Origin: Acidimicrobiales bacterium
GTDB taxonomy: Bacteria; Actinomycetota; Acidimicrobiia; Acidimicrobiales; AC-14
NCBI GenBank assembly: GCA_052390275.1
Contig: JBQTHD010000019.1
Location: 36-24,035 of the forward strand
Direction of reading: 5' to 3'
DNA: 24,000 nt
Under the pieces are notes generated by a model. It saw only the letters and a program-made list of their open reading frames with translations. It was not told where the DNA came from and did not search any database. A program made the translations under genes and the position numbers. Numbering within the stretch: the stretch's first letter is position 1; each line of letters starts with the position of its first letter. Of this stretch, positions 2,363 to 14,729 are shown in pieces.

Positions 2363-3610
2363 CTAAACCAAGGAGATCTCGTGACAGAAGGGACGGCCGT
2401 CGAAGGAGTGAGGGGCCGCGCCCGTCACGACCGCCTCGGCCAGGACGACATCGGTCGGTTGGGCCCACAGTCCCTTGAGGGCCGAGGCCAGCGGGTCGGC
2501 GACGTCGAGCCCCAGGGAAAGGAACGAGTACCCGGCCCCCACCCCCCGGTTGGCCGCCCCAACCACCAGGGCCCGGGCCACGTCCATGCGGTCGTCGGAG
2601 ACACAAAGGTGGACCAGGCTGAGGTTGCGCAGGGCCTGTCCGGGAGCGGGCAGGCGGGTGGCCCTGACCAGGGGTGCGGCCAGGTTGAACACCCGGCGCA
2701 CCATCGCCAGGCGGGAGGAGTAACCCGTGACCCGGAATCGCTTGAACGAGTCGGTGTCCCAGACCCCGGCCAGGCCGACCAGCCGCCCGGACCGATCGCG
2801 AACCAGCAGATAGGACGGGTAGTCGAGACCGGGGGCCGCATTGATGAAGGCGTCGAGGCCAGCCTCGTCCAGGCATCCCCTGAGTTGGCGCGACGGTGCC
2901 CACCGCCGCCACAGATCGGCCATCTCCGCCAGGTCGGACGGCGCCGCCGGGGCGGTGGACAACTCACCAGGCAAACGTCGCCGCAGGAGCAGGGGGAGGC
3001 TGTAGGCCCGGATGGTGGTCAGAGGGTGGACCCGGGGAAGCCCTCGCGGGCCCTCGAAGCGCTTCTCCATCGCCTGATTGCCGCCCAGCACGGTCATGAC
3101 CACCAGCCCCGTCGGGCCGACCGCCTCCAGGCAACGCTTGGTCGCCCAGCGGCTGAGGGCATCGCCGACGCCTTGGCCCCGGAACTGCGGAAGTACCTTC
3201 AGGTCGCTCACATACATCGCCGAGGTTGGCCGCCCGTCGTGGTGAAGACGTCGCAGGGCGACGGCAATGCAGCCCACTACACGGTCGTCAATCTGAACTA
3301 CTCCGGCCCGCCACGGCTGCGTCCACCCCGGGGGGAGCGAATCGTCATAATCCGCTGCCACCTCGGACTCGAGGCGGTTGAGAACGAAGAAATCCGGCGC
3401 CCGATCCGACGCCAGGGCGATGTCGCCCTCCATGGGACACGCAACCGAAAGCGCCACCAGATCGGGATTGTCCGCCTCCTGGCCCTCTCGTACCTCCCAG
3501 GCGTCGTGGCCTTTGCCGTCGGGATTGAAATGGTCGTTGACCAGTCCTTCAACCGCGTCGTCGTCCGCCGGGTCCGCCTCGTCACCGGCGGATCCAGGGA
3601 CAATCGTCAT
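2363..3610 (-). CDS. two-lobed GNAT-family acyltransferase (415 aa)
   Basis: Acyl-CoA-binding motif VLPQFRGQGVGDALSRWATKRC in the N-terminal half, and a second GNAT-sized lobe in the C-terminal half. The start ATG overlaps the upstream gene's stop (ATGA at 3607-3610). Confidence 0.65.
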   Translation of the reverse strand: MTIVPGSAGDEADPADDDAVEGLVNDHFNPDGKGHDAWEVREGQEADNPDLVALSVACPMEGDIALASDRAPDFFVLNRLESEVAADYDDSLPPGWTQPWRAGVVQIDDRVVGCIAVALRRLHHDGRPTSAMYVSDLKVLPQFRGQGVGDALSRWATKRCLEAVGPTGLVVMTVLGGNQAMEKRFEGPRGLPRVHPLTTIRAYSLPLLLRRRLPGELSTAPAAPSDLAEMADLWRRWAPSRQLRGCLDEAGLDAFINAAPGLDYPSYLLVRDRSGRLVGLAGVWDTDSFKRFRVTGYSSRLAMVRRVFNLAAPLVRATRLPAPGQALRNLSLVHLCVSDDRMDVARALVVGAANRGVGAGYSFLSLGLDVADPLASALKGLWAQPTDVVLAEAVVTGAAPHSFDGRPFCHEISLV

Positions 3611-4764
3611 CCGGTCACTCGGCAGGCGGCCAAACGGCGCTGCACGGCGCTGCGGTCGGCCAGAATCAGCGTCTCCCCGCGAGGGCGATCCTCCTCGATC
3701 CGGCCGGCCCAGGCGGGAGGTATCTCCGTCCAGCCCAGGAAGTTGCGGATCACCAGAGGGGCTCCGGCGACAGCGGTACGCACCACCTGGGCGAGCAGTT
3801 CATGCAGTTGCACGGCAGTCAGCCACTCGCAGATGTTCGACAGGGCGAAGCCGTCAACGCTCTGGGCCGGCTGCGTGGCCAGGTAGGACGCCACGTCGGT
3901 GGCCACCAGCGTGAGTCGCCCCAGGGCGTCATCGCCCCCTGAGGAAGCCGACGCGTCACTGCCCCGCCTGTCCGGGTCGGGGCTCAGGTAGGGAGGGACC
4001 CCGCCGGACTCGGTCCCTGGGTACCGCCCGGTGAGCATGTGGTGAACGAAGTAGTTGGTGGCGATCGGAATGGCAGTGAGGGTGTGGTCGGCTGCGGCGC
4101 GAAAATGGCGTGCGAAGCTGGGGTTGTCGACGTGGGCGAAGAAGGCCGGGTCATAGGCCCGGCGAAGGACCGCCCGGTTGAGCAGCACCGCGAAGAAGGC
4201 CCTCCAGCGTGGGGTGTCCCACTCGGAAGCGAACAGGCGCTGCTGGGCCTCGAGAGTAGGGGCGGCCAGCATGCGTTCGATCCGGCCGGTCGGGTGAACG
4301 CCGGTCCTGAGAGCGGCAACCACCGTGGCGATGAATCTCTCGGTCACGCCGGAGCCCAGCACCCCCTTGTCGATGGCCCGGGAGTGGAGGCTCCAATAGG
4401 AACGGGCGGCGGGGGACAACCCGGGGGCCAACCGAGAAAAGGCCCGACGCCGTTGTTCGGGCCGGGCGCCATGGCCACCCAGAAAGGCCGTCGCCTCCTC
4501 GTGCCCCAGTTCGCCAACAGCCAGGGCCTTCAGTTCCACCAGGTGGAGTTGGGTGCGGTTCAGGTCGACCGCCACCACCTGTCCCTGGCCCCGATGCAGG
4601 AGGGACAAAGCGGTGCACCCTCCTGACGCCACCACCACCACCCTCCCGTCGAGGGCAGGCGCCAGGACGTCGAGTTCGAGGAGGGGATCCTCCCTGACCT
4701 GGGCGAAGAACAGCCGGTCGTCCTGGCCTCCTCCCGGATCGAGCCGACGGATCGGCCCGGTCAT
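3607..4764 (-). CDS. DUF3419 / BtaA-like protein (homolog of SAM:diacylglycerol 3-amino-3-carboxypropyl transferase)
   Basis: N-terminal FAQVREDPLLELDVL followed by a Rossmann-like VVVVASGGCTALSLL, the pattern I associate with DUF3419/BtaA. ATG at 4764. Confidence 0.7.
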   Translation of the reverse strand: MTGPIRRLDPGGGQDDRLFFAQVREDPLLELDVLAPALDGRVVVVASGGCTALSLLHRGQGQVVAVDLNRTQLHLVELKALAVGELGHEEATAFLGGHGARPEQRRRAFSRLAPGLSPAARSYWSLHSRAIDKGVLGSGVTERFIATVVAALRTGVHPTGRIERMLAAPTLEAQQRLFASEWDTPRWRAFFAVLLNRAVLRRAYDPAFFAHVDNPSFARHFRAAADHTLTAIPIATNYFVHHMLTGRYPGTESGGVPPYLSPDPDRRGSDASASSGGDDALGRLTLVATDVASYLATQPAQSVDGFALSNICEWLTAVQLHELLAQVVRTAVAGAPLVIRNFLGWTEIPPAWAGRIEEDRPRGETLILADRSAVQRRLAACRVTG

Positions 4765-4829: not shown

Positions 4830-6710
4830 ATGCAGTCGGGGCCCTTCGGTCGTACCATCGAACAGATGGTCAACCGGATGGACGTGCTGTCCGGATGGCT
4901 GACTGAGGGGAATCGGCCGGGCCGTGAACGCCCGGCTATCGAGCACGCTCAGAATCGCCAGCCTTCGCTCACCGGTTCGGGTCTGGTTGGTGCGGTCGAG
5001 GCCATTGACAACGACCTCGCCGCCCACGGTGCTGGCCCCGGCGACCGGGTGATCCTGTGGGACGAGCCCGGCCCCGCCTGGCTGGCCGCCTGGTTGGGAG
5101 CGCTTCGCCGGGGATGCGTGACAGTTCCCCTCGATTCACGCTTGACCGACGCCGAGGCTCGATCCCTGATCGACCGGTCCCAAGTGACCGCAGCGGTTAC
5201 CGGGCCGACGTTCGCCAGCCGCTGGGCGGCCGCGGGGCACCGACCGGCAATCTTGGCCTGGGAGCACGTATCTGCCGCCGCCGGTACCGGGCCCACCATC
5301 GAATCGAACCAAAGCGCCGAGCCCGGACAACTCCCGGAGTCCCCCGGGGCCCTGGAGGTTGCGGCGGCCGACCCGGTCACCTTGGTATGGACCTCAGGCA
5401 CCACGGGAGCGCCTCGCGGGGTGCTGCTCTCTGGCCTCAACCTGGCCTATGTCGTGGAACAGGTGGCGACGGGTCAGACCTTGAGCGCGTCCGACCGGTG
5501 GCTATCGGTTCTGCCCCCCAACCACCTCCTGGAGTTGGTGTGCGGGTTGCTGCCGGCCTTGTCCACCGGCGCCTCCACCATCGTGGCCGGGACACTCATG
5601 CCCGGTGACCTGGTCACCATGGTGGCCGAGAAGGCCATCACCCACATGGTGGTCGTCCCGGCCGTGCTGGCCGGACTGGCGAAATACCTGCAGGCGGGCT
5701 CCGCTGACGCCACGGCCGACGGTCGGTTGTCGAGCCTGAAGGCCGTCTACTGCGGCGGGGCGGCGCTGGACCCGGGTATCGCCCTGGCCATGGAACGGGT
5801 CGGCGTCGTCGTGTACCCGGGCTACGGATTGACCGAGACCAGCCCCGTGGTGGCCATGTGCGCCCCGGGGTCGATTCGATACGGGTCCGTCGGGCGGCCG
5901 TTGGCCGGTACCGAGGTCCGCCTCAGGGCGCCCGATCGCCAGGCAGCAGGGGCGCCCACAGATGACCCGGCGACGGCTGCAGAAGTGATCCGGGCCGAGG
6001 CGGACCATCCCGGCGAGGGGGAACTCTGCGTCCGCGGGCCTGGGGTGATGCTCGGCTACTGGAACGACCCCGAGGCCACCGCCAACGCCATCGATACCCA
6101 GGGATGGCTGGGAACGGGGGACCTGGCCACGATCGATCCCCAGGGTTTCATCACCATTACCGGACGGGTTTCGGTTCGGATCGTTCTCATCTCGGGGAAG
6201 AAGGTGGATCCCACCGAGGTTGAGAACGCGCTCACCGCCGATGGCACCTTTGCCGAGGCCTGCGTCCTTGCCTGGCCGCCGCCGGCCCGCCCCGGGGTCG
6301 GGGGCGGGGGCAGGGGCGGGGCGGCCAAGTCCGTCGAGGTGATCGGCATCGTTCGCCCCAGCGGTGATTACCTCCTCGCCGGCACCGGACCGGTATCTAG
6401 ACCGGTCCCTGGCACTTCGGTCGTTGCAACCGGGCCTGCTGAATGGGCAACCGAGGTTGCCACTGGCCTAGTGGGCCGGCTCAGCCCCTACAAGCGCCCC
6501 CATCGCATCCTGGTTCATCCCGGTCCTCTGCCGCGAACCGCCAAAGGCACCGTTCGGCGGGGCGAAGTCGCGGCCTGGCTGGCGCGGACTCTCGATCCCG
6601 CTGTCCAGGAACACCATGAGGCTGGAGACCCGACGACGACCCGAATTGACGACACCTCACGTCACCGGATTGTCGACACGGCAAGCGGATCGTCCGGGAC
6701 GGCTGGCTGA
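4830..6710 (+). CDS. adenylate-forming acyl ligase (fatty acyl-AMP/acyl-CoA/acyl-ACP ligase family)
   Basis: Motifs LVWTSGTTGAPRGVLLS, YPGYGLTETS, GWLGTGDLATID and C-terminal PRTAKGTVRR. Start uncertain (4830, 4866 or 4878). Its stop overlaps the next start (TGATG 6708-6712). Confidence 0.85.
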   Translation: MQSGPFGRTIEQMVNRMDVLSGWLTEGNRPGRERPAIEHAQNRQPSLTGSGLVGAVEAIDNDLAAHGAGPGDRVILWDEPGPAWLAAWLGALRRGCVTVPLDSRLTDAEARSLIDRSQVTAAVTGPTFASRWAAAGHRPAILAWEHVSAAAGTGPTIESNQSAEPGQLPESPGALEVAAADPVTLVWTSGTTGAPRGVLLSGLNLAYVVEQVATGQTLSASDRWLSVLPPNHLLELVCGLLPALSTGASTIVAGTLMPGDLVTMVAEKAITHMVVVPAVLAGLAKYLQAGSADATADGRLSSLKAVYCGGAALDPGIALAMERVGVVVYPGYGLTETSPVVAMCAPGSIRYGSVGRPLAGTEVRLRAPDRQAAGAPTDDPATAAEVIRAEADHPGEGELCVRGPGVMLGYWNDPEATANAIDTQGWLGTGDLATIDPQGFITITGRVSVRIVLISGKKVDPTEVENALTADGTFAEACVLAWPPPARPGVGGGGRGGAAKSVEVIGIVRPSGDYLLAGTGPVSRPVPGTSVVATGPAEWATEVATGLVGRLSPYKRPHRILVHPGPLPRTAKGTVRRGEVAAWLARTLDPAVQEHHEAGDPTTTRIDDTSRHRIVDTASGSSGTAG

Positions 6711-7711
6711 TGGTCGCCGTATATCGGGATCCGGCCTACCTCGATGGGATCGGATGGTGTCTGGGAAGCCAGCGCCAAACGGTTCCTGAGGCCCTGGCCG
6801 CCGGTCGGGTCCGGGCCAGCGCGCAGGCGTTCGCGTCGGCCGGCTTCGTCAGCCATCACGTCTGCAGCGACGGTGAAACGGCCTACGACCTGGCCCTGGC
6901 CGCCGCCACCCAGGCCGGGGAAAAGGCGATGACGGGCGTGGGGGCCATCATCTATTCCACGTGCCTGCCGACCAACGCCAACCTGGCCGGGCCCGCTGAG
7001 TTCGCCTCCAGCCGGGACGTGAAGCACCTCATGGACTTCCCCGCCAGCCGCCTGCAGCGAGACCTGGATCTCCCCGATGCGTTCGTGATCGGGCTTACCC
7101 AACAGGCCTGTACGGCCATGTTGGGGTCACTTCGCCTGGGCACCGCCCTGCTCGGCTCCGAAGCCGGCTTGGATGCGATCCTGTGCGTCACCGCCGACCG
7201 GTTCCCCCCGGGGGCCCTTTACGAACAGGCCTACAACCTGGTCTCCGACGGGGCCGCTGGCTGTGTGGTCTCCCGGAGCCCCGGTCGGTACCGGATCCTT
7301 GCCGCCCACCATCTGACCCGGGGTGGCCTGGTTCACGCCGGCGACGACGAGACCATTGGCGCCTTTTTCGCCGCCACCGGGCAGTTGATGACAGAACTGA
7401 TGGAGGGCTGCGGACTCCAGCCTGCCCAGGTTCACCGGGTGGTGACGCAGAACACCGACCCACGGGCGTGGCGAATCTTGGGGCCCACGCTGGGATTCGG
7501 TCCGTCACAGATCTGGGCGCCCACTCTGGCCGAGGTCGGTCACGTGATCAGCGCTGACAGCCTCATCAACCTGGCCGCACTTGACGACGTCGACCGTGCC
7601 GGGGGAGGGGCCCAACCGGGCGATCTGATCATCCTGGTCATGGCCGGTTACGGCCTGAATACCCAAGCCGTCCTGCTCGAGCGGGTGGCCGCCGCCGGTC
7701 CGGCGGCCTGA
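6710..7711 (+). CDS. KAS III (FabH)-like enzyme with a non-canonical catalytic triad
   Basis: Thiolase-fold pattern: GLTQQACTAMLGSL (Cys nucleophile context), VSDGAAGCVV, and C-terminal VMAGYGLNTQAVLLE. The FabH HQAN motif reads VTQNT and the GNTSAAS motif reads GHVISAD (alignment by eye). Confidence 0.75.
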   Translation: MVAVYRDPAYLDGIGWCLGSQRQTVPEALAAGRVRASAQAFASAGFVSHHVCSDGETAYDLALAAATQAGEKAMTGVGAIIYSTCLPTNANLAGPAEFASSRDVKHLMDFPASRLQRDLDLPDAFVIGLTQQACTAMLGSLRLGTALLGSEAGLDAILCVTADRFPPGALYEQAYNLVSDGAAGCVVSRSPGRYRILAAHHLTRGGLVHAGDDETIGAFFAATGQLMTELMEGCGLQPAQVHRVVTQNTDPRAWRILGPTLGFGPSQIWAPTLAEVGHVISADSLINLAALDDVDRAGGGAQPGDLIILVMAGYGLNTQAVLLERVAAAGPAA

Positions 7712-8604
7712 TGAGCACCCCTTCCGGCCGGGCAGGCCAACCTTTACCGGAGTTGGCCCGACGCCTCGCCGCGGCTTCGGTCCGCAGCCGCAGGGATCCC
7801 GAGACCGCCATCGACTGGCCGGCCTCGATCGATCCCGCCGCCTGGTTCATGCGCCCGGAGTGGGTCTCGGCCTACGACACCCCGTGGTGGGAGGCCCTCG
7901 ACACCCCGTCCCGCCAGCGCCTCAGCTTCTACGAGGCCGTCAACTTCTTCAGCCTCAACATTCACGGCGAGCGCCAACTCATGGCCGGCCTGGCACGGCG
8001 TCTGTATGCGCCGGGCCTGGAGGGGGTGAGCCCGTACATCCATCACTTCCTGGCCGAGGAGAACAACCACAGCCTGTGGTTCGCCACCTTCTGCACCCGT
8101 TACGCCGGCGCCATCTATCCCGACCGCGCTGTCACCTTTCCCAGCCATGCGGCTCCCGGTCAGGACGACGTTTGCTTCTTCGCCCGCGTGGTGATCTTCG
8201 AGGAGATCGTCGACCGCTACAACCAGGCCATGGCCGCGGACGACCGGGTAGAACCGGTGGCCCGCCAGATCAACGCCAACCACCATGCCGAAGAGATCCG
8301 CCACCTCGCCTTCGGGCGCCGCCTGGCACTCGAGTTGTGGGCGCAGTGGGCGCCGACCTGGAGTGACGAGGTCCGCGCTGAGGTGAGGACGCACCTCGAC
8401 GGCTTTGTCGAGGACACCTGGCGATCGTTCTACCGGGCCGAGGCCTACCGGGATGCCGGCTTGGCCGAGCCATGGGCCCTTGCACGGCGGATCTGGTCAT
8501 CCCCGGCCGCTGTGGCCCATCGGGAACGGGTGAGCGCCGAAGCCCTGGCTCCGCTGGTATCGGCCGGAGTCCTGACCCTGCCCGGACCCCCGGCCCCAGG
8601 CTGA
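7711..8604 (+). CDS. AurF-type di-iron carboxylate oxygenase
   Basis: Four-helix di-iron ligand pattern: NIHGERQ (E), LAEENNHSLWF (ExxH), VIFEEIVDRY (E), HHAEEIRHLAFG (H-x3-E-x2-H, the extra His typical of AurF/CmlI-type N-oxygenases). TGATG overlaps at both ends. Confidence 0.65.
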   Translation: MSTPSGRAGQPLPELARRLAAASVRSRRDPETAIDWPASIDPAAWFMRPEWVSAYDTPWWEALDTPSRQRLSFYEAVNFFSLNIHGERQLMAGLARRLYAPGLEGVSPYIHHFLAEENNHSLWFATFCTRYAGAIYPDRAVTFPSHAAPGQDDVCFFARVVIFEEIVDRYNQAMAADDRVEPVARQINANHHAEEIRHLAFGRRLALELWAQWAPTWSDEVRAEVRTHLDGFVEDTWRSFYRAEAYRDAGLAEPWALARRIWSSPAAVAHRERVSAEALAPLVSAGVLTLPGPPAPG

Positions 8605-8873
8605 TGACCTCGGCCGCATCCGCCGAAACCATCCGCCAGGCCCTGATCGGATGGCTGGTCAAACACAACCCGGGCCTTGAACCGGCCGGGGTGTCCGATG
8701 ACTCCCGCCTGATCGAGAACCGCTGGCTCACGTCGGTTCAGATCCTGGACCTCCTCGGCCTGCTGGAGGAGTTGCGCGAGGAGGCCATCCCACTCGACGC
8801 GCTGCGCCCCGGGTCCTTCGCCACCATCGGAGTGATCATCGACACCTTCTTCGGACCCGCGGCTCGATCATGA
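8604..8873 (+). CDS. carrier protein 1 (ACP/PCP-like, 89 aa)
   Basis: Size and helix pattern of a carrier protein. Candidate phosphopantetheine Ser in RWLTSVQILDLLGLLEE. The start ATG at 8604 overlaps the upstream stop, and its own stop overlaps the next start (ATGA 8870-8873). Confidence 0.65.
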   Translation: MTSAASAETIRQALIGWLVKHNPGLEPAGVSDDSRLIENRWLTSVQILDLLGLLEELREEAIPLDALRPGSFATIGVIIDTFFGPAARS

Positions 8874-9751
8874 ACCTGCCGGCCGGTCAACCCGGGACAC
8901 CCGACCCCCTGGTGGCAGCCGGGCCGGGGGGGGTGGCCGTCTTGACCCCGGACCTGGTGGCATTCCTCGATGGCCTCGATGCCCACCTGGTGGCACTGGC
9001 TCGCCGATGGTGGGCGGAGGAGTTCCGGTTCGGGCCGTTGCTGGCGGCCGACGTGGTGGATCGCATGGACTGGCTGACCGGGTTTCCCCAGTTGGCCACC
9101 TTCCCCGCCACCCTCGACGCCGCACCCGACAACCTCGACGCCTTCTGCGCCGGGCCGCCCCGATCCGACGACGGGACCATCCGACTCACCTCCCTCGCCC
9201 CATTGGCCCAGGTCCTGGCCCCGGCTGCCTGCTATCACCTTTACGACCACCTTGCCGGCGGAAACTTCGACACCCCGCAATGGTTCACCGTTCGGGCGCC
9301 CTGCTTTCGGCGGGAGGAGGACTATGTGCCCCTGGAGCGCCAGTGGGCCTTCAACATGCGCGAGATCGTGTGCGTCGGTCCGCCCGGGCCAACTTCGGAC
9401 TTCGTTGACGAGGCCACCCTGATGATCTCCGACCTGGCCCGCCATCTCGGACTCGACGTCGACTGGAACCGGGCGACTGACCCGTTCTTTAGACCCACCC
9501 GTCACCCGGGTTACCTGCTGCAGTTGGTGGACCCCACCAAACACGAGTTGCTGTTTCAGAACCGTCTGGCCCTGGCCTCGACCAACCTGCACCACGACCA
9601 CTTCGGACGGGCCTTCGCTCTGACCTCCGACGGAAAGCCGGCCCGAACAGCCTGCGTGGCCTTCGGCCTGGAAAGGTGGGCGGCGGCCATGATGGCCACC
9701 CACGGCTCTCCGGATCGTTGGCCGGTGCCGCCGGCCGCCGCCGGTCCGTGA
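8870..9751 (+). CDS. truncated class II aminoacyl-tRNA-synthetase-like protein; probable amino acid:[carrier protein] ligase
   Basis: 293 aa, catalytic-core size only. SerRS-like motif 2 RAPCFRREE...RQWAFNMREIVCVG, and motif 3-like TACVAFGLERWAAAM. Cys/Glu/Cys (AACYH, REIVC, TACVAF) sit where a Zn site would lie in methanogen-type SerRS homologs. No tRNA-binding arm. Coupled to an upstream carrier protein. Confidence 0.6.
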   Translation: MNLPAGQPGTPDPLVAAGPGGVAVLTPDLVAFLDGLDAHLVALARRWWAEEFRFGPLLAADVVDRMDWLTGFPQLATFPATLDAAPDNLDAFCAGPPRSDDGTIRLTSLAPLAQVLAPAACYHLYDHLAGGNFDTPQWFTVRAPCFRREEDYVPLERQWAFNMREIVCVGPPGPTSDFVDEATLMISDLARHLGLDVDWNRATDPFFRPTRHPGYLLQLVDPTKHELLFQNRLALASTNLHHDHFGRAFALTSDGKPARTACVAFGLERWAAAMMATHGSPDRWPVPPAAAGP

Positions 9752-10941
9752 CTTATCGCGTACGCCCGGACCCCGACAGCGTCCGCTCCGGATCAAGGGA
9801 CCGCAAGGTTGACCCCGACCCGCTCGGCGGTGCCGGAGCGGAGACCGACGCTCGGCTGGCTGGGCATCGCGAGCCCTGGGACGATCGGGTCGTACTGGTG
9901 ACGGGGGCATCGGGATACCTGGGCGCGCTGGTGGCAGCCAGGTACCGGGCCGCGGGGGCGACCGTCATCGCCCATGGCCGGCGGCCGGTGCCGATACCAC
10001 AGGGTTCGGGGCAATGGGTGTCCGTGGTGGGAGACCTGACCAGCGACGACGCTTTCGCCGGACTCAAGCCATCCTGGCGGCGCCAGATCACCGCCGTAGT
10101 CCACGCAGCAGCCCTGACCCGCTTCGACGCCACCGCCGAGGAGGCCGACGCCGTCAACGTCGAAGGGACGCGCCGAGTGTTGGACCTGGCCTTGGCGTGT
10201 GAGAACCTGACCGCCTTCGGGCACTTGAGCACCGTGTACGCCTCGGGGCTGCAGGGCGGCACCATCGCCGAGGAACTGAGGCCGGCTACCGCCGGGTTCG
10301 CCAACCACTACGAGCGGTCCAAGTCCGAGTCCGAGCATCTGGTGGCTCTGGCCGGCCCGCCGAGGTGGCGCATCCTGCGGGCCGCCACCGTTATCGCCGA
10401 CGGCGAGGACGGAACCGTCAGCCAGTACAACGCTTTCCACGAGACCCTCAAACTGTGGTTCGGCGGACTGCTCCCGCTCATCCCCGGCCGGGCGGCCAGC
10501 CCGCTCTACCTGACCACCGGCAACTTCACGGCGGAAGCCATAGTCGCCCTGATGGATCATCCGGCGGCCGGCGGGCAGGTGTATCACCTGACCCCCACCA
10601 CCTCGGCCTGCCTCACGCTGGCCCAGGCCGTCGCCCTGGTGTCGGGGACCTTCGGAGAGAGCGCCGGATACCGAAGGCGGGGAGTCCTGACCCCGCCGCT
10701 GGTGGATTGGGCGAGCTTCGAACTCCTCGGCGCCGGGGTGGAGGCCTTCGGCGGGGCCCTGGTCCGGCGGTCCCTGGCCGCCCTCACGCCCTTCGCCCGC
10801 CAACTGGGAGTGGAGAAGGACCTTGTCAACCAGGCCTTTTGCGCGCTGCACCCGCGACAGCATCCGGACCTCGGCCCCCTGGTCGTGGCGGTGTGCCGTC
10901 ATCTGATGGCAACGTCGTGGGGACGCCGTGAGGCCGGATGA
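9748..10941 (+). CDS. thioester-reductase-type SDR (NAD(P)H-dependent, terminal-reductase-like)
   Basis: VLVTGASGYLG Rossmann motif, VVHAAALTRFD, NVEGTRRVLDLA, LSTVYASG, YERSKSESE (YxxxK). I place the start at the GTG at 9748 overlapping the upstream stop (GTGA). The track start at 9676 would overlap the previous gene by 76 nt. Confidence 0.7.
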   Translation: MTYRVRPDPDSVRSGSRDRKVDPDPLGGAGAETDARLAGHREPWDDRVVLVTGASGYLGALVAARYRAAGATVIAHGRRPVPIPQGSGQWVSVVGDLTSDDAFAGLKPSWRRQITAVVHAAALTRFDATAEEADAVNVEGTRRVLDLALACENLTAFGHLSTVYASGLQGGTIAEELRPATAGFANHYERSKSESEHLVALAGPPRWRILRAATVIADGEDGTVSQYNAFHETLKLWFGGLLPLIPGRAASPLYLTTGNFTAEAIVALMDHPAAGGQVYHLTPTTSACLTLAQAVALVSGTFGESAGYRRRGVLTPPLVDWASFELLGAGVEAFGGALVRRSLAALTPFARQLGVEKDLVNQAFCALHPRQHPDLGPLVVAVCRHLMATSWGRREAG

Positions 10942-11641
10942 ACTCATCGAGGTGGCCGAGTGGGCGTCGGCCGCCCTGGGGTGGGAGGTCCGTCTGGCCA
11001 TGACCACAGACGGCCTGGCCCCCGGGAACATGACGGCGGGGGAGCGGCGGCAGTTTCAGGTATTCGACTCCCCGCAGCGCCGGGCGGACTGGTCCCGGGG
11101 CAGGGCTGCGCTGAAGAACCTTCTGGGCGGGGCCGATACCTCGACGGTGACCTTCCCCCACCCCTGGCTGTCGATCTCGCACTCCGGGTCGGTGGCCGTG
11201 GCCGCCGCTCTTCCCGGGCTGGGGGACGCCGCCTGCGGGCCTGGACTGGGAGTGGACTATGAGGCTTCGCGCTCCGTCGACGACCGGGCGATCCGGTTCT
11301 TCCTCCACCCCCATGAGGTTCCGGAGGCGGGTGCGAGCCGTTCCCCCGGCGGCGATGCCACGTTCCGTCCACTCGGATTCCCGGGGGCCGGTTGCCCGCC
11401 GAGGTCGACCGACCCGCCGGCGGGGTGCCTGCTGGCCGCATGGACTGCCAAAGAGGCTCTCTTCAAAGCGTCCGGTCCCGCCAACCAGGGACGGACTCTC
11501 CTCGATGTCCACCTCACCGGCCCGGCTGCGCCCATGGGGCGGGCGATCGGGCCTGCCGGCTCGGATATGGCCTACGTGAGCGCCGTGGTGTCTTCCGGAT
11601 GCCTGTCGGTGGCCGTGGGCCGGAACCGGCCGGTCCGGTGA
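10928..11641 (+). CDS. Sfp-type 4'-phosphopantetheinyl transferase
   Basis: LSISHSGSVAVAA, GVDYE and AWTAKEALFKA motifs. The GTG start overlaps the upstream gene by 14 nt, and internal starts are possible. Confidence 0.8.
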   Translation: MRPDELIEVAEWASAALGWEVRLAMTTDGLAPGNMTAGERRQFQVFDSPQRRADWSRGRAALKNLLGGADTSTVTFPHPWLSISHSGSVAVAAALPGLGDAACGPGLGVDYEASRSVDDRAIRFFLHPHEVPEAGASRSPGGDATFRPLGFPGAGCPPRSTDPPAGCLLAAWTAKEALFKASGPANQGRTLLDVHLTGPAAPMGRAIGPAGSDMAYVSAVVSSGCLSVAVGRNRPVR

Positions 11642-12378
11642 AGCGGGGCAGCACAGAACGGGCGGCCGGGCCGGTCGGCGACGACGAACACTGGCTGCTC
11701 AGCTACTACCGGACGTCGGAGATCAACGGGTCCCTGTTCTTCGGCCGGCTGGCCCGCAGCATGCGCCCGGGTCCCATCCAGCACGACCTGACCCGGCACT
11801 TTGCCGATGAGGCCCAACACGCCTGGTACTGGACAGACTGCCTTGCAAAGCTGGATCTTCGACCCATCAAGCTCTCCGACGCCTACCAGGACCAGTACCT
11901 GGAGGCGGCCGGCCTACCCATGAACCTGATGGAGGTTCTGGCCATCACCCTGGTCTTCGAGCGACGGGTGGTGAACCAGTACACCCGTCACCTGGCCGCA
12001 CCCACCATCCGCCCCGAGGTGGCCACCACCATTGCCACCATCATGGCCGACGAGCGCTGGCACGTCCGCTGGGTCCGAGACGCCCTGGAACGGATGGAGG
12101 AGCGCTACGGCGCCTCCACGGTGGCCGAGACCCTCCATCGCTACAAGGAGGCCGACCGGGAGGTCTACGCCCACACCCTGGCCGAGCACGAGGCCCGACT
12201 GGCCTTCCTGTTCGAGCGTCAAAAAGGGGTTCCGTCGCCGGTTCAGCCGGCCGAGATGAGGATCGAGGATCGGGTCGGGACCATGGGCGACATCGATCCA
12301 CATCGGTCAGGGCAACCCGACCCGCCAAGCGCGCAGTCAACCAGCCCGCGATCACTACGCAACGAGGAGCGGACATGA
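11638..12378 (+). CDS. ferritin-like di-iron carboxylate protein (246 aa), unrelated in sequence to 7711-8604
   Basis: E / ExxH / E / ExxH pattern: SEINGSLFF, ADEAQHAWYW, LVFERRVV, MADERWHVRW. I place the start at the GTG at 11638 (GTGA overlap with the PPTase stop). The upstream part of the track ORF (11392-) lies inside the PPTase gene. Confidence 0.7.
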   Translation: MKRGSTERAAGPVGDDEHWLLSYYRTSEINGSLFFGRLARSMRPGPIQHDLTRHFADEAQHAWYWTDCLAKLDLRPIKLSDAYQDQYLEAAGLPMNLMEVLAITLVFERRVVNQYTRHLAAPTIRPEVATTIATIMADERWHVRWVRDALERMEERYGASTVAETLHRYKEADREVYAHTLAEHEARLAFLFERQKGVPSPVQPAEMRIEDRVGTMGDIDPHRSGQPDPPSAQSTSPRSLRNEERT

Positions 12379-12611
12379 ACCCCACCCCCGAGGACGTCCG
12401 GCGGCACATGGCCAAACTCCTTGAGCGGCCCGAGGCCAAGGTGGCCACAGCCGCCGTCCTGACCGACCTGGTAGCCGACAGCTTCCGCTTGGTGGAACTG
12501 GCCATCGAACTCCAGGACGACTTCGACGTGGTCCTGACCCAGGCCGATCTCTCCGTGATCAACACCGTGGGCGACCTGGCCCAGTTGGTGGCCTCTAGGG
12601 CGCGGGGCTAG
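12375..12611 (+). CDS. carrier protein 2 (ACP, 78 aa)
   Basis: LTDLVADSFRLVELAIELQDDFDV, a classic DS(F/L) phosphopantetheine site followed by an acidic helix. ATGA overlap at 12375-12378, with GAGGAG at 12364-12369. Confidence 0.8.
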   Translation: MNPTPEDVRRHMAKLLERPEAKVATAAVLTDLVADSFRLVELAIELQDDFDVVLTQADLSVINTVGDLAQLVASRARG

Positions 12612-13316: not shown

Positions 13317-14729
13317 ATGCCATTGGTCCACCGGGTCCTGTATCCCCGGGCCATCGTGTCCCTGGAGGACCATGTGGGCCGGGGTGGAGGCAAAGGCCTG
13401 GCCGCCGCCCGGGACATGACGCCCGATCAGATCATCGAGGCGGTGTTGGCCTCGGGCCTGCGAGGCCGAGGGGGAGCGGGCTTTCCCACCGGCCGCAAGT
13501 GGCGCACGGTGGCCGACAACGCGGCCGGGGTCGGCCCCCCGACGGTGGTTGTCAACGCAGCGGAGGGAGAGCCGGGAACCCTCAAGGACCGCACCATCCT
13601 GCGCCGCAACCCCTTTGGAGTGGTGGAGGGCGCGTTGGTGGCAGCCCGGGCCACCGGGGCTGACCTGATCGTCTTCGCCACCAAGGAGGCGTTCTCCGGC
13701 GAGGTCGACCGGCTTCGGGAGGCGGTGGAACAGGCCGAGGACGCCGGTTGGTCCGAAGGCGTGGCCATGACCGTCTTTGAGGGCCCCGACGAGTACCTCT
13801 ACGGCGAGGAGAGCGCGCTGCTGGAAACCATCAGCGGACGCTGGCCCTTCCCCCGGGTGGTGCCGACCTTTCGCCGGGGGGTCACCGGGGGCGAGGGTCC
13901 CACCCCGCCGGCGCTGGTCAACAACACCGAGACCCTGGCCAACGTTGCCCGGATCGTGGCCCGAGGATCGGCCTGGTTCCGCACCATGGGTACCGAGGAG
14001 TCCCCGGGCACCGCCGTCTGCACCGTCACCGGCGACACCCACCATCACGGCGTCGGCGAGGTCCAGATGGGCACACCCTTGGGGGAGGTGATCGAGTTGA
14101 TCGGCGGCGGGCCCAGGGAGGGTCGCAAGATCAAGGCGGTCATGTCCGGGGTGGCCAACGCCATCATGGGCCCCGAAGCCCTCGACGCCCCGGTCAGCTA
14201 CGAGGGGTTGCGGGGCGCGGGCAGCGGCATCGGGTCCGCCGGGTTCATCGTCTTCGACGAAACAGCCGACATGGTGGCGGTCGCGGCGGGGGTATCGAGG
14301 TTCTTGGCGGTGGAGTCCTGCGGCCAGTGCGCGCCCTGCAAGATCGACGGGGCCAGCCTGGCCCAGACGCTGTTGAAGATTGCGGCGTCGCAGGCCATCG
14401 ACCACGACCGCCAGTTGCTCGACCGCAAACTCTCCACGGTGGCCGACCGGGCCCGCTGCTTCTTGGCCACCCAGCAGCAGGTGATGATCACCAGCATCCT
14501 GTCCAGGTTCCCCGAAGAGTTCGAGGGCCGAATGGACCGCAGCCGCGAACCGGTGTCCTCCGCCCTGATCTCTGAACTGATCGACATCCGCAACGGCAAA
14601 GCCGTTCTCGACGAACGCCATCGCCGCAAGCAGCCCGACTGGACCTACAACAAGCGGGACTCGGGCACCGTCCCGGTTGAGCGCTACGCCAGCCTTACCC
14701 CCCCCTGGGGCCTCGGCGCCCTCGCCTGA
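13317..14729 (+). CDS. stand-alone NuoF-like NADH-binding FMN/4Fe-4S flavoprotein
   Basis: GLRGRGGAGFPTGRKW, NAAEGEPGT, the cluster motif ESCGQCAPCKIDG, and a later C in RARCFL. No nuoE/nuoG neighbours are present. Confidence 0.85.
   Translation: MPLVHRVLYPRAIVSLEDHVGRGGGKGLAAARDMTPDQIIEAVLASGLRGRGGAGFPTGRKWRTVADNAAGVGPPTVVVNAAEGEPGTLKDRTILRRNPFGVVEGALVAARATGADLIVFATKEAFSGEVDRLREAVEQAEDAGWSEGVAMTVFEGPDEYLYGEESALLETISGRWPFPRVVPTFRRGVTGGEGPTPPALVNNTETLANVARIVARGSAWFRTMGTEESPGTAVCTVTGDTHHHGVGEVQMGTPLGEVIELIGGGPREGRKIKAVMSGVANAIMGPEALDAPVSYEGLRGAGSGIGSAGFIVFDETADMVAVAAGVSRFLAVESCGQCAPCKIDGASLAQTLLKIAASQAIDHDRQLLDRKLSTVADRARCFLATQQQVMITSILSRFPEEFEGRMDRSREPVSSALISELIDIRNGKAVLDERHRRKQPDWTYNKRDSGTVPVERYASLTPPWGLGALA

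What the first reader, a model, noticed from the sequence alone, without database searches (positions are those of the whole stretch)
7711..8604. AurF-type (H-x3-E-x2-H) di-iron oxygenase placed directly upstream of a carrier protein
The ligand pattern is E (NIHGERQ), ExxH (EENNH), E (FEEIV) and HxxxExxH (HHAEEIRH). This includes the additional His that distinguishes AurF/CmlI-type arylamine N-oxygenases from ordinary ferritin-like di-iron proteins.

No aromatic-amine biosynthetic genes are present here. The nearest amine would be the alpha-amino group of a carrier-tethered amino acid. That raises the possibility of N-oxygenation (hydroxylamine, nitroso, nitro, or an N-N precursor) on an aliphatic, carrier-bound substrate.
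Basis: partly seen in the sequence, partly recalled or inferred. Interest (0 to 1): 0.6.

Follow-up and report, generated by a model that had tools for sequence, protein, structure and literature searches.

The report
Carrier-protein-linked diiron N-oxygenase in lipid operon
This gene encodes an AurF-like two-iron oxygenase that most likely oxidises the amino group of an amino acid held on a small carrier protein, and it sits in an uncharacterised nine-gene operon, found in more than a dozen bacterial phyla, that probably makes an N-oxygenated lipid.

Summary
Bases 7711-8604 encode a 297-aa PF11583 (AurF family) protein. Its E / ExxH / E / HxxxExxH ligand set is invariant in all relatives examined. 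Its stop codon overlaps the start of an 89-aa carrier protein.

The gene always travels with a carrier protein and a tRNA-synthetase-like amino acid:carrier-protein ligase. Relatives are fused to carrier domains. The sister group (31-41% identity) sits beside nitronate monooxygenases or methyltransferases. That matches the published route from carrier-bound glycine to a nitronate.

The idea itself is not new. PvfB, HamC, the althiomycin oxygenase and the enteromycin oxygenase already act on carrier-tethered aliphatic amino acids.

What remains open is the operon: acyl-AMP ligase, Cys-only KASIII, oxygenase, carrier protein, ligase, thioester reductase, PPTase, a ferritin-like protein with an aldehyde-deformylase-like fold, and ACP. 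It is syntenic in 245 species genomes from at least 12 phyla. I found no characterised product for it.

CylC halogenases and the whole Pfam family carry it too.

This scan already noted the same operon in another genome (e1-5250123) and called it orphan.

The parts
7711..8604 (+). AurF-family (PF11583) ferritin-like diiron oxygenase, 297 aa (P0001). This is the finding.
   Evidence: Pfam E 2.8e-38. AF2 model has pLDDT 91.5. VIA Z is 20.5 to CmlI and 19.8 to AurF. The ligands are invariant.
7969..8304 (+). Codons of the proposed metal ligands: E87 (7969-7971), E117 (8059-8061), H120 (8068-8070), E164 (8200-8202), H191 (8281-8283), E195 (8293-8295) and H198 (8302-8304). The second-sphere residues are E116 and E194.
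   Evidence: All are invariant. The C-terminal four are aligned to AurF E196/H223/E227/H230 by HMMER.
8604..8873 (+). Carrier protein CP1, 89 aa. The proposed phosphopantetheine attachment site is Ser44, in the motif WLTS.
   Evidence: Its start overlaps the oxygenase stop. Ser44 is conserved in at least 90% of 67 orthologues. It is homologous to a PF00550-positive carrier protein. The fused carrier domain of P0238 matches CP1 (E 6e-5) and not ACP2.
8870..9751 (+). Amino acid:[carrier protein] ligase, a class II seryl-tRNA-synthetase-like catalytic core of 293 aa.
   Evidence: NCBIfam NF005479 at E 1e-40. PDB Bll0957 (3mey) at E 5.7e-35. ATGA overlap with CP1.
6710..7711 (+). KASIII-like enzyme that keeps the catalytic Cys (QQACT). 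The FabH His position holds Thr and the FabH Asn position holds His.
   Evidence: Pfam ACP_syn_III_C. Alignment to FabH 2ebd. Family-wide conservation.
4830..6710 (+). Acyl-AMP / acyl-ACP ligase (AMP-binding family), 626 aa.
   Evidence: PF00501 at E 2.3e-64. Syntenic in 58 of 80 loci.
9748..10941 (+). Stand-alone thioester reductase (NAD_binding_4). The mechanical ORF begins at 9676. The GTG at 9748 overlaps the ligase stop.
   Evidence: PF07993 at E 8.8e-23 and TIGR01746 at 4e-22. Syntenic in 69 of 80 loci. The homologue P0175 fuses a reductase, an alpha/beta hydrolase and an AurF domain.
10928..11641 (+). 4'-phosphopantetheinyl transferase.
   Evidence: PF01648 at E 1.3e-6. Found in 43 of 80 loci.
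11638..12378 (+). Second, small ferritin-like diiron protein (E / ExxH / E / ExxH). It is the best-conserved protein of the operon.
   Evidence: 47-76% identity across phyla. Only weak Rubrerythrin and DUF455 hits. The best fold matches are proteins with reported aldehyde-deformylating activity: 5ux2 at Z 18.2 and 8fhc at Z 17.7, against 15 or less for ferritins.
12375..12611 (+). Acyl carrier protein ACP2, 78 aa, with a DSF motif.
   Evidence: PF00550 at E 7.7e-8. Found in 57 of 80 loci.
2363..4764 (-). Divergent DUF3419 (BtaA-like) and GNAT gene pair. These are neighbours specific to certain lineages, not core parts of the operon.
   Evidence: PF11899 at E 6e-51 and PF00583. Present in 24 and 20 of 80 loci, mostly Actinomycetota.

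Best explanation
P0001 is a carrier-protein-dependent ferritin-like diiron N-oxygenase. The proposed pathway has six steps.
1. The PPTase primes CP1.
2. The tRNA-synthetase-like ligase loads a small amino acid, probably glycine, as a thioester on CP1.
3. The reduced diiron site of P0001 binds O2 and oxidises the alpha-amino group of aminoacyl-S-CP1. The first product would be the hydroxylamine, and the reaction possibly runs on to the nitroso/oxime or nitro/nitronate level.
4. In this operon the oxidised unit is then joined to a fatty acyl group. The acyl-AMP ligase activates that group onto ACP2, and the Cys-only KASIII-like enzyme transfers it. A preformed nitronate or N-hydroxy nucleophile would need no decarboxylation, which fits the loss of the FabH His and Asn.
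5. The thioester reductase releases the product as an aldehyde.
6. The small diiron protein with an aldehyde-deformylase-like fold may process that aldehyde further.

Shown here: the family, the fold, the ligand set, the gene linkage and the phylogenetic neighbours. Inferred: the substrate, the oxidation level reached, the order of steps and the final product.
For: Family, fold and ligands:
- PF11583 at 132 bits.
- CmlI and AurF are the top fold matches at Z 20.5 and 19.8.
- The 3-His/4-carboxylate set is invariant.
- The second-sphere carboxylates are E116 and E194, as in AurF (D135, D226). They are not Gln, as in the halogenases (PMC12101540).

Linkage to the carrier protein and ligase:
- Start/stop overlaps join KASIII, oxygenase, CP1 and ligase.
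- The operon is syntenic in 80 loci from at least 12 phyla: ligase in 74, CP1 in 63 and KASIII in 77 of 80, with many loci cut by contig ends.
- Thirty of the 30 best Streptomyces loci have the ligase adjacent.
- AurF-carrier domain fusions exist (P0156, P0230, P0233, P0238), as does a reductase-hydrolase-AurF fusion (P0175).
- The fused carrier domain resembles CP1, not ACP2.

The substrate is not a fatty acyl chain:
- Minimal cassettes have only oxygenase, carrier protein, ligase and a nitronate monooxygenase with or without a methyltransferase.

N-oxygenation:
- All carrier-linked oxygenases form one clade (SH-aLRT 99).
- That clade contains the nitronate-monooxygenase/methyltransferase-linked group.
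- 5 of 30 Streptomyces loci carry a nitronate monooxygenase and 14 of 30 carry two methyltransferases.
- This fits published chemistry: glycine on a carrier protein plus a diiron oxygenase gives a nitronate, which is then O-methylated (PMC12183544, PMC9967187, citing He & Ryan 2021). It also fits oxidation of tethered valine by HamC and PvfB (PMC11659414).

The ligase is a Bll0957 homologue.
Against: - No enzyme activity was measured.
- No sequence of a biochemically characterised carrier-dependent oxygenase (PvfB, HamC, AlmD, the enteromycin enzyme, LitN) could be placed in the tree. The link to nitronate chemistry therefore rests on RefSeq annotation of neighbouring genes.
- The nitronate-monooxygenase/methyltransferase-linked sister group has Ile where this protein has the first Glu ligand (NVHGI versus NIHGE). 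The two groups may therefore differ in their chemistry.
- The window and its 96%-complete genome have no nitronate monooxygenase above the Pfam cut-off.
- The 3-His motif also occurs in C-H halogenases (PMC12101540).
- The amino acid loaded by the ligase is unknown.
Confidence: 0.65

Rival explanations
1. The oxygenase N-hydroxylates an amide after acylation. On this reading the KASIII-like enzyme first N-acylates aminoacyl-S-CP1 with the fatty acyl group. P0001 then hydroxylates the amide nitrogen to give a lipid hydroxamate, as proposed for LitN in lipothrenin biosynthesis.
For: The lipothrenin cluster lists the same kinds of parts: KASIII LitB, acyl-AMP ligase LitD, ferritin/RNR-like LitE, ACP LitF, an 85-aa LitK, an essential 311-aa LitL and the diiron N-oxygenase LitN. 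Deleting litN removes N-hydroxylation (PMC10616846). The nine-gene operon has both acyl and aminoacyl arms.
Against: Relatives in minimal cassettes work with no acyl-transfer genes at all, so the ancestral substrate is the free amine of aminoacyl-S-carrier protein. No lit sequence was available, so homology between LitN and P0001, or between LitL and the ligase, was not tested. None of the 30 best Streptomyces loci has the lit gene order.
Confidence: 0.15
2. The enzyme oxidises carbon, not nitrogen. It would perform alpha/beta-hydroxylation, desaturation or halogenation of the tethered amino acid.
For: Ferritin-like diiron enzymes perform C-H oxygenation, desaturation and halogenation. CylC-type halogenases share the HxxDExxH 3-His motif and act on carrier-bound substrates (PMC12101540, PMC12154687).
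Against: The halogenase signature QExxH is absent; the protein has EExxH. The fourth carboxylate, E164, is invariant. The best fold matches are N-oxygenases. Sister-clade genes sit beside nitronate monooxygenases, which consume N-oxidised products.
Confidence: 0.12
3. The enzyme acts on the fatty acyl chain carried by ACP2, as a desaturase, hydroxylase or halogenase. Its position next to CP1 would then be incidental.
For: An acyl-AMP ligase and an ACP are in the same operon, as in the CylA/CylB/CylC system (PMC12101540).
Against: The gene is translationally coupled to CP1, not to ACP2. The fused carrier domains resemble CP1. Close relatives occur in cassettes with no acyl-AMP ligase or ACP2. 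A different diiron protein is coupled to ACP2.
Confidence: 0.05

Closest known systems
Glycine-nitronate-forming diiron oxygenase of the enteromycin carboxamide pathway and related 'nitronate' cassettes (He & Ryan, Nat Chem 2021; the paper is not held and is cited through PMC12183544, PMC9967187 and PMC12154687)
   Same: It is a ferritin-like diiron oxygenase acting on a carrier-protein-bound small amino acid. Homologues at 31-41% identity to P0001 lie in cassettes with a carrier protein, the same tRNA-synthetase-like ligase and a nitronate monooxygenase and/or methyltransferase. They share one clade with P0001. They also share H192 and E116, which the rest of PF11583 lacks.
   Different: The window operon has no nitronate monooxygenase or O-methyltransferase. 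Instead it has an acyl-AMP ligase, a KASIII-like enzyme, a thioester reductase, a second diiron protein and a second ACP. P0001 keeps Glu87, where the nitronate-cassette group has Ile. I could not check the published enzyme's sequence, or whether the published cassette uses this type of ligase.
PvfB / HamC (Pseudomonas pvf and Burkholderia ham clusters)
   Same: These are AurF-homologous diiron N-oxygenases that oxidise an aliphatic amino acid (valine) tethered to a carrier domain. A reductase then releases the product as an aldehyde (PMC11659414, PMC10194917).
   Different: There the amino acid is loaded by an NRPS A-T-R protein. Here the loading, carrying and reducing functions are three separate proteins, and loading is by a tRNA-synthetase-like ligase. 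Sequence relatedness was not testable because no PvfB or HamC sequence was available.
AurF / CmlI arylamine N-oxygenases
   Same: Same Pfam family and the same fold (Z 19-20.5). Same 3-His/4-carboxylate ligand pattern with second-sphere carboxylates.
   Different: Identity is only 13-15%. There is no phmmer hit, and the profile E-value is only 0.08. AurF and CmlI act on a free aromatic amine, whereas this protein has a carrier-bound aliphatic context. No aromatic-amine genes are in the window.
Lipothrenin cluster (LitN with LitB/D/E/F/K/L), Streptomyces aureus
   Same: On the paper's gene table it has the same parts list: KASIII, acyl-AMP ligase, ferritin-like protein, ACP, a small 85-aa protein, a protein of about 311 aa and a diiron N-oxygenase. 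Its product is an N-hydroxylated N-acyl amino acid (PMC10616846).
   Different: It has no thioester reductase, a different gene order, and additional ThiF and DUF4873 genes. The resemblance comes from annotation only; no sequence comparison was possible.
Amino acid:[carrier protein] ligases Bll0957 / Atu2573
   Same: The neighbouring ligase is a clear homologue (E 5.7e-35 to 3mey) and has its own dedicated carrier protein.
   Different: As far as I know, no downstream chemistry or product has been assigned to those founding examples. Here the ligase is tied to a diiron oxygenase.

Membership tests
PF11583 / AurF-like ferritin-like diiron oxygenases | Match to the family HMM above the curated cut-off | tested here: met
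   132.1 bits against a cut-off of 29.6, covering profile positions 6-270 of 282.
PF11583 / AurF-like ferritin-like diiron oxygenases | Helical-bundle fold closest to solved AurF and CmlI | tested here: met
   AF2 model at pLDDT 91.5. VIA gives CmlI at Z 20.5, rmsd 3.5, 265 residues aligned, and AurF at Z 19.8. The next matches, RNR R2 and R2lox, are at Z 17 or less. Foldseek also ranks CmlI and AurF first.
PF11583 / AurF-like ferritin-like diiron oxygenases | Seven-ligand 3-His/4-carboxylate site (E, ExxH, E, HxxxExxH) | tested here: met
   E87, E117, H120, E164, H191, E195 and H198 are invariant. The C-terminal four are aligned to AurF ligands by HMMER. The N-terminal three are assigned by motif and spacing only.
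Arylamine N-oxygenase subgroup (AurF, CmlI, AzoC, Dob3-like) | Significant sequence similarity to AurF or CmlI, and an aromatic-amine pathway context | tested here: not met
   phmmer finds no PDB hit at E of 1 or less. The family profile gives only E 0.078 and 0.12. Structural identity is 13-15%. No aromatic-amine genes are in the window.
Carrier-protein-dependent aliphatic amino acid N-oxygenases (PvfB, HamC, AlmD, enteromycin oxygenase) | Genetic linkage to a carrier protein and an amino-acid-loading enzyme | tested here: met
   Overlapping stop and start codons. The ligase is present in 74 of 80 loci and adjacent in 30 of 30 Streptomyces loci. Carrier-domain fusions exist.
Carrier-protein-dependent aliphatic amino acid N-oxygenases (PvfB, HamC, AlmD, enteromycin oxygenase) | Common ancestry with a biochemically characterised member | not testable with these tools
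   No sequence of a characterised member could be obtained. Only neighbours annotated as nitronate monooxygenase or methyltransferase place the sister clade.
Carrier-protein-dependent aliphatic amino acid N-oxygenases (PvfB, HamC, AlmD, enteromycin oxygenase) | N-oxygenated product on the tethered amino acid | not testable with these tools
   This needs in vitro reconstitution.
Nitronate cassette (oxygenase with nitronate monooxygenase or nitronate O-methyltransferase) | Adjacent nitronate monooxygenase or O-methyltransferase | tested here: not met
   Neither was found among the window ORFs. There is no PF03060 match above the cut-off in the 96%-complete genome.
CylC-type dimetal-carboxylate halogenases | QExxH with HxxDExxH, and the fourth carboxylate displaced from the metal site | tested here: not met
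   The protein has EExxH, with E116 invariant, and its E164 is invariant. The motif definition comes from PMC12101540.

The most novel reading that the evidence does not exclude
The nine-gene operon makes a class of natural product not yet described. A tRNA-synthetase-like ligase and a diiron oxygenase turn carrier-bound glycine into a nitronate or N-hydroxy nucleophile. A Cys-only KASIII enzyme then acylates that nucleophile directly, with no decarboxylation. Reductive release and aldehyde deformylation follow. The product would be a long-chain nitro, alpha-nitroketone or N-hydroxy-amide lipid, made by bacteria of more than a dozen phyla.
Probability: 0.3. Interest if true: 0.75.

Novelty: new variant of a known kind. 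Interest (0 to 1): 0.55.

Why it matters
Diiron N-oxygenation of carrier-tethered aliphatic amino acids is known from only a handful of pathways: pvf/ham signals, althiomycin and enteromycin-type nitronates.

This work shows three things.
- One well-supported clade of these enzymes is regularly paired with a tRNA-synthetase-like ligase rather than an NRPS.
- That clade occurs in about a fifth of the sampled Streptomyces genomes.
- One branch of it is embedded in a strongly conserved nine-gene lipid-type operon. The operon is present in Acidimicrobiia, Streptomyces, cyanobacteria, Melainabacteria, Nitrospirota, Acidobacteriota, Myxococcota, Bdellovibrionota, Planctomycetota and other groups.

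A conserved operon of this breadth with no known product is a concrete target for discovering a new N-O-containing lipid. It would also give a physiological role to the long-orphan amino acid:carrier-protein ligases. Culturable hosts exist, including Streptomyces orinoci NRRL B-3379, S. fildesensis and Catellatospora species.

Tried and rejected
Genomic contexts came from the search for related loci, the genome search and the plasmid collection instead.

2. The primary papers are not held: He & Ryan 2021 and Morgan & Li 2020. I used secondary statements.

3. I tried to obtain AurF and CmlI sequences for the tree through a PF11583 search of 301 Streptomyces genomes. That search returned a near-universal 'core' family scoring 320-365 bits, not identifiable AurF or CmlI orthologues. 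The tree therefore contains no characterised enzyme.

4. A mixed profile (A2) against the PDB, meant to map the N-terminal ligands onto AurF, hit only a VlmB homologue (6d9f, E 1e-3) and an R2lox, and only in part. The question is unresolved.

5. All-against-all clustering of raw ORFs from 80 loci was blurred by antisense ORFs in high-GC DNA. It showed only that nothing beyond the nine genes and the DUF3419/GNAT pair is widely conserved.

6. I looked for a lipothrenin-like gene order (carrier protein, ligase, ThiF, oxygenase) among the 30 best Streptomyces loci and found none. The lipothrenin link is untested by sequence.

7. For the second diiron protein, Pfam and PDB sequence searches gave only weak generic ferritin or rubrerythrin hits.

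8. I considered and rejected a fusion of oxygenase and ligase in the nitronate-monooxygenase-type Streptomyces loci. The long open frames there are not in the same frame as the ligase match.

9. The careful maximum-likelihood search did not finish. The tree cited is the quick IQ-TREE search, with SH-aLRT support only.
Full report
**The gene and its motifs.** The ORF at 7711-8604 (+) gives a 297-aa protein, P0001. It matches Pfam PF11583 (AurF) at E 2.8e-38, 132 bits, almost end to end. It has no NCBIfam match. In an alignment of 21 homologues at 45-59% identity, E87, E117, H120, E164, H191, E195 and H198 are invariant. So are E116 and, as D or E, residue 194. The same holds in 27 rows drawn from many phyla.

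**Relation to solved structures.** The protein is far from the solved arylamine oxygenases in sequence. phmmer finds nothing in the PDB, and the family profile reaches AurF and CmlI only at E 0.08 and 0.12. That weak alignment does put E164, H191, E194, E195 and H198 on AurF E196, H223, D226, E227 and H230. An AlphaFold2 model (pLDDT 91.5) matches CmlI (Z 20.5, rmsd 3.5, 265 residues) and AurF (Z 19.1-19.8) best. RNR R2 and R2lox follow at Z 17 or less, and Foldseek agrees. The assignment of E87 as the first ligand rests on invariance and on its 30-residue spacing from E117. A mixed profile failed to give a residue-level alignment.

**The operon.** Nine plus-strand genes are joined by overlapping stops and starts:
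- acyl-AMP ligase, 4830-6710
- KASIII-like enzyme, 6710-7711
- the oxygenase, 7711-8604
- an 89-aa carrier protein CP1, 8604-8873
- an amino acid:[carrier protein] ligase, 8870-9751 (NF005479 at E 1e-40; Bll0957 structure 3mey at E 5.7e-35)
- a thioester reductase, ending at 10941
- a PPTase, 10928-11641
- a second small E/ExxH/E/ExxH protein, 11638-12378
- ACP2, 12375-12611

CP1 has no Pfam hit of its own. Its Ser44 is conserved in at least 90% of 67 orthologues, and it is homologous to PF00550-positive and RefSeq-annotated carrier proteins. The KASIII-like enzyme keeps the Cys. It has Thr at the FabH His position and His at the FabH Asn position, both here and across the family.

**Distribution.**
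- A scan of one genome per species found 245 loci that encode a relative. The best 80 are 42-62% identical.
- They come from Acidimicrobiia and other Actinomycetota, Streptomyces, Catellatospora and Nitrospirota.
- They also come from Melainabacteria, Nostoc, Stigonema, Planktothrix, Acidobacteriota and Myxococcota.
- Further sources are Bdellovibrionota, Alpha- and Gammaproteobacteria, Planctomycetota, Omnitrophota and a Marinimicrobia/Fidelibacterota MAG.

tblastn with the window's proteins shows the same gene order throughout. Of the 80 loci, KASIII is present in 77, the ligase in 74, the reductase in 69 and CP1 in 63. The second diiron protein is in 61, the acyl-AMP ligase in 58, ACP2 in 57 and the PPTase in 43. 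Many loci are cut by contig ends. The divergent DUF3419/GNAT pair is present in only 20-24 loci. The window's own genome has a single PF11583 gene.

**What the oxygenase acts on.** Four observations point to aminoacyl-S-CP1.
1. Some homologues are fused to a C-terminal PP-binding domain (P0156, P0230, P0233, P0238). One is fused to a thioester reductase and a hydrolase (P0175). The fused carrier domain of P0238 matches CP1 (E 6e-5), not ACP2.
2. On annotated plasmids, relatives at 31-41% identity sit in small cassettes with no fatty-acid genes.
 - Tistrella mobilis pTM2 has diiron oxygenase, an 84-aa protein, an aminoacyl-tRNA-ligase-related protein, a nitronate monooxygenase and a SAM methyltransferase.
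 - Streptomyces sp. NBC_01431 and Agrobacterium vitis have the same core plus a nitronate monooxygenase and a PPTase.
 - Azospirillum has an A domain, an ACP, a methyltransferase and the oxygenase next to NRPS/PKS genes.
3. In 401 Streptomyces genomes, 81 carry a member of this clade. All 30 of the best loci have the ligase adjacent. Three are of the nine-gene type, five have a nitronate monooxygenase and fourteen have two methyltransferases.
4. In a quick IQ-TREE tree of 70 rows, all carrier-linked oxygenases form one clade (SH-aLRT 99, stem length 1.95). This clade is apart from the 'core' PF11583 proteins of Streptomyces and Mycobacteriales, which have no ligase. The nitronate-monooxygenase/methyltransferase-linked group (support 100) lies among the nine-gene-type rows. 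H192 and E116 are shared only by these two groups.

**Which chemistry.** Published work fits N-oxygenation.
- FDO N-oxygenases carry a characteristic seventh histidine ligand and make nitroso, nitro and nitronate groups (PMC12154687).
- Glycine on a carrier protein is turned into a nitronate by a diiron oxygenase and then O-methylated in enteromycin carboxamide biosynthesis (PMC12183544, PMC9967187, both citing He & Ryan 2021).
- Tethered valine is oxidised by HamC and PvfB (PMC11659414, PMC10194917).

Nitronate monooxygenase neighbours make sense only if the oxygenase product is N-oxidised.

There are limits to this reading.
- The sister group has Ile at the position of Glu87.
- The window genome has no nitronate monooxygenase.
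- CylC halogenases also carry HxxDExxH, although with QExxH rather than the EExxH seen here (PMC12101540).
- PF11583 occurs in 294 of 301 Streptomyces genomes. That count includes one unpublished genome, G525, from which no sequence is used. The Pfam name alone therefore says little.

**The rest of the pathway (inferred).** The second diiron protein is the best-conserved gene of the operon. Its best fold matches are proteins deposited as having aldehyde-deformylating activity (5ux2 at Z 18.2, 8fhc at Z 17.7, 5uwz at Z 16.7), moderately above ordinary ferritins. It stands next to a thioester reductase that should make an aldehyde. A Cys-only KASIII enzyme suits acyl transfer to a preformed nucleophile. 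These steps are proposals, not findings.

**Closest characterised operon.** On its published gene table, the lipothrenin cluster has a similar parts list and makes an N-hydroxy-N-acyl amino acid (PMC10616846). I could not compare sequences with it.

**Verdict.** The enzyme type is known. The nine-gene operon is, as far as I could find, uncharacterised. An earlier follow-up in this scan, on another genome, reached the same view.

Noticed in passing
L109, L110, L111, L142-L144, L024, L025 (column of window residue E87, 7969-7971): All eight oxygenases of the nitronate-monooxygenase/methyltransferase-linked sister group read NVHGI where the nine-gene type and the core family have a Glu (NIHGE / GIWFE). 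Either another carboxylate replaces the first ligand, or these enzymes have an open coordination site.
   Followed up: partly
window 11638-12378: The second small diiron protein is the most conserved gene of the operon (47-76% identity across phyla). Its best fold matches are proteins deposited with aldehyde-deformylating activity (Z 16.7-18.2). It follows a thioester reductase, which suggests an aldehyde-making and aldehyde-consuming pair.
   Followed up: partly
window 6710-7711: The KASIII-like enzyme keeps the Cys (QQACT) but has Thr at the FabH His position and His at the FabH Asn position. This is conserved in 77 orthologues. It looks like an acyltransferase or a non-decarboxylating condensing enzyme.
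   Followed up: partly
P0175; P0156, P0230, P0233, P0238 (metagenomic homologues): Natural fusions exist. One joins a thioester reductase, an alpha/beta hydrolase and an AurF domain in a 974-aa protein. Others join an AurF domain to a PP-binding domain in proteins of about 380 aa.
   Followed up: partly
L007, L011, L012, L019, L022, L023 (Streptomyces): Many Streptomyces genomes carry a divergently oriented pair of PF11583 paralogues with no ligase nearby. The second copy lacks the equivalents of H191 and E164, so it may not bind two metals. PF11583 as a whole is in 294 of 301 sampled Streptomyces genomes.
   Followed up: no
L024, L155, L156, L159, L163-L174 (Streptomyces): A conserved cassette (LCM-type methyltransferase, class I methyltransferase, oxygenase, ligase, PPTase, carrier protein) recurs in 14 of the 30 best Streptomyces loci. 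It looks like an O-methyl-nitronate (enteromycin-type) module.
   Followed up: partly
window 2363-4764 (- strand): A BtaA-like DUF3419 gene and a 415-aa GNAT gene are divergently transcribed from the operon. They accompany it in only 20-24 of the 80 loci, mostly Actinomycetota, and may be a lineage-specific tailoring module.
   Followed up: no
window 13317-14729: A stand-alone NuoF-like flavoprotein (FMN and 4Fe-4S domains) lies just downstream of the operon. It is not conserved next to the operon elsewhere. It could still be a local electron donor for the two diiron enzymes.
   Followed up: no
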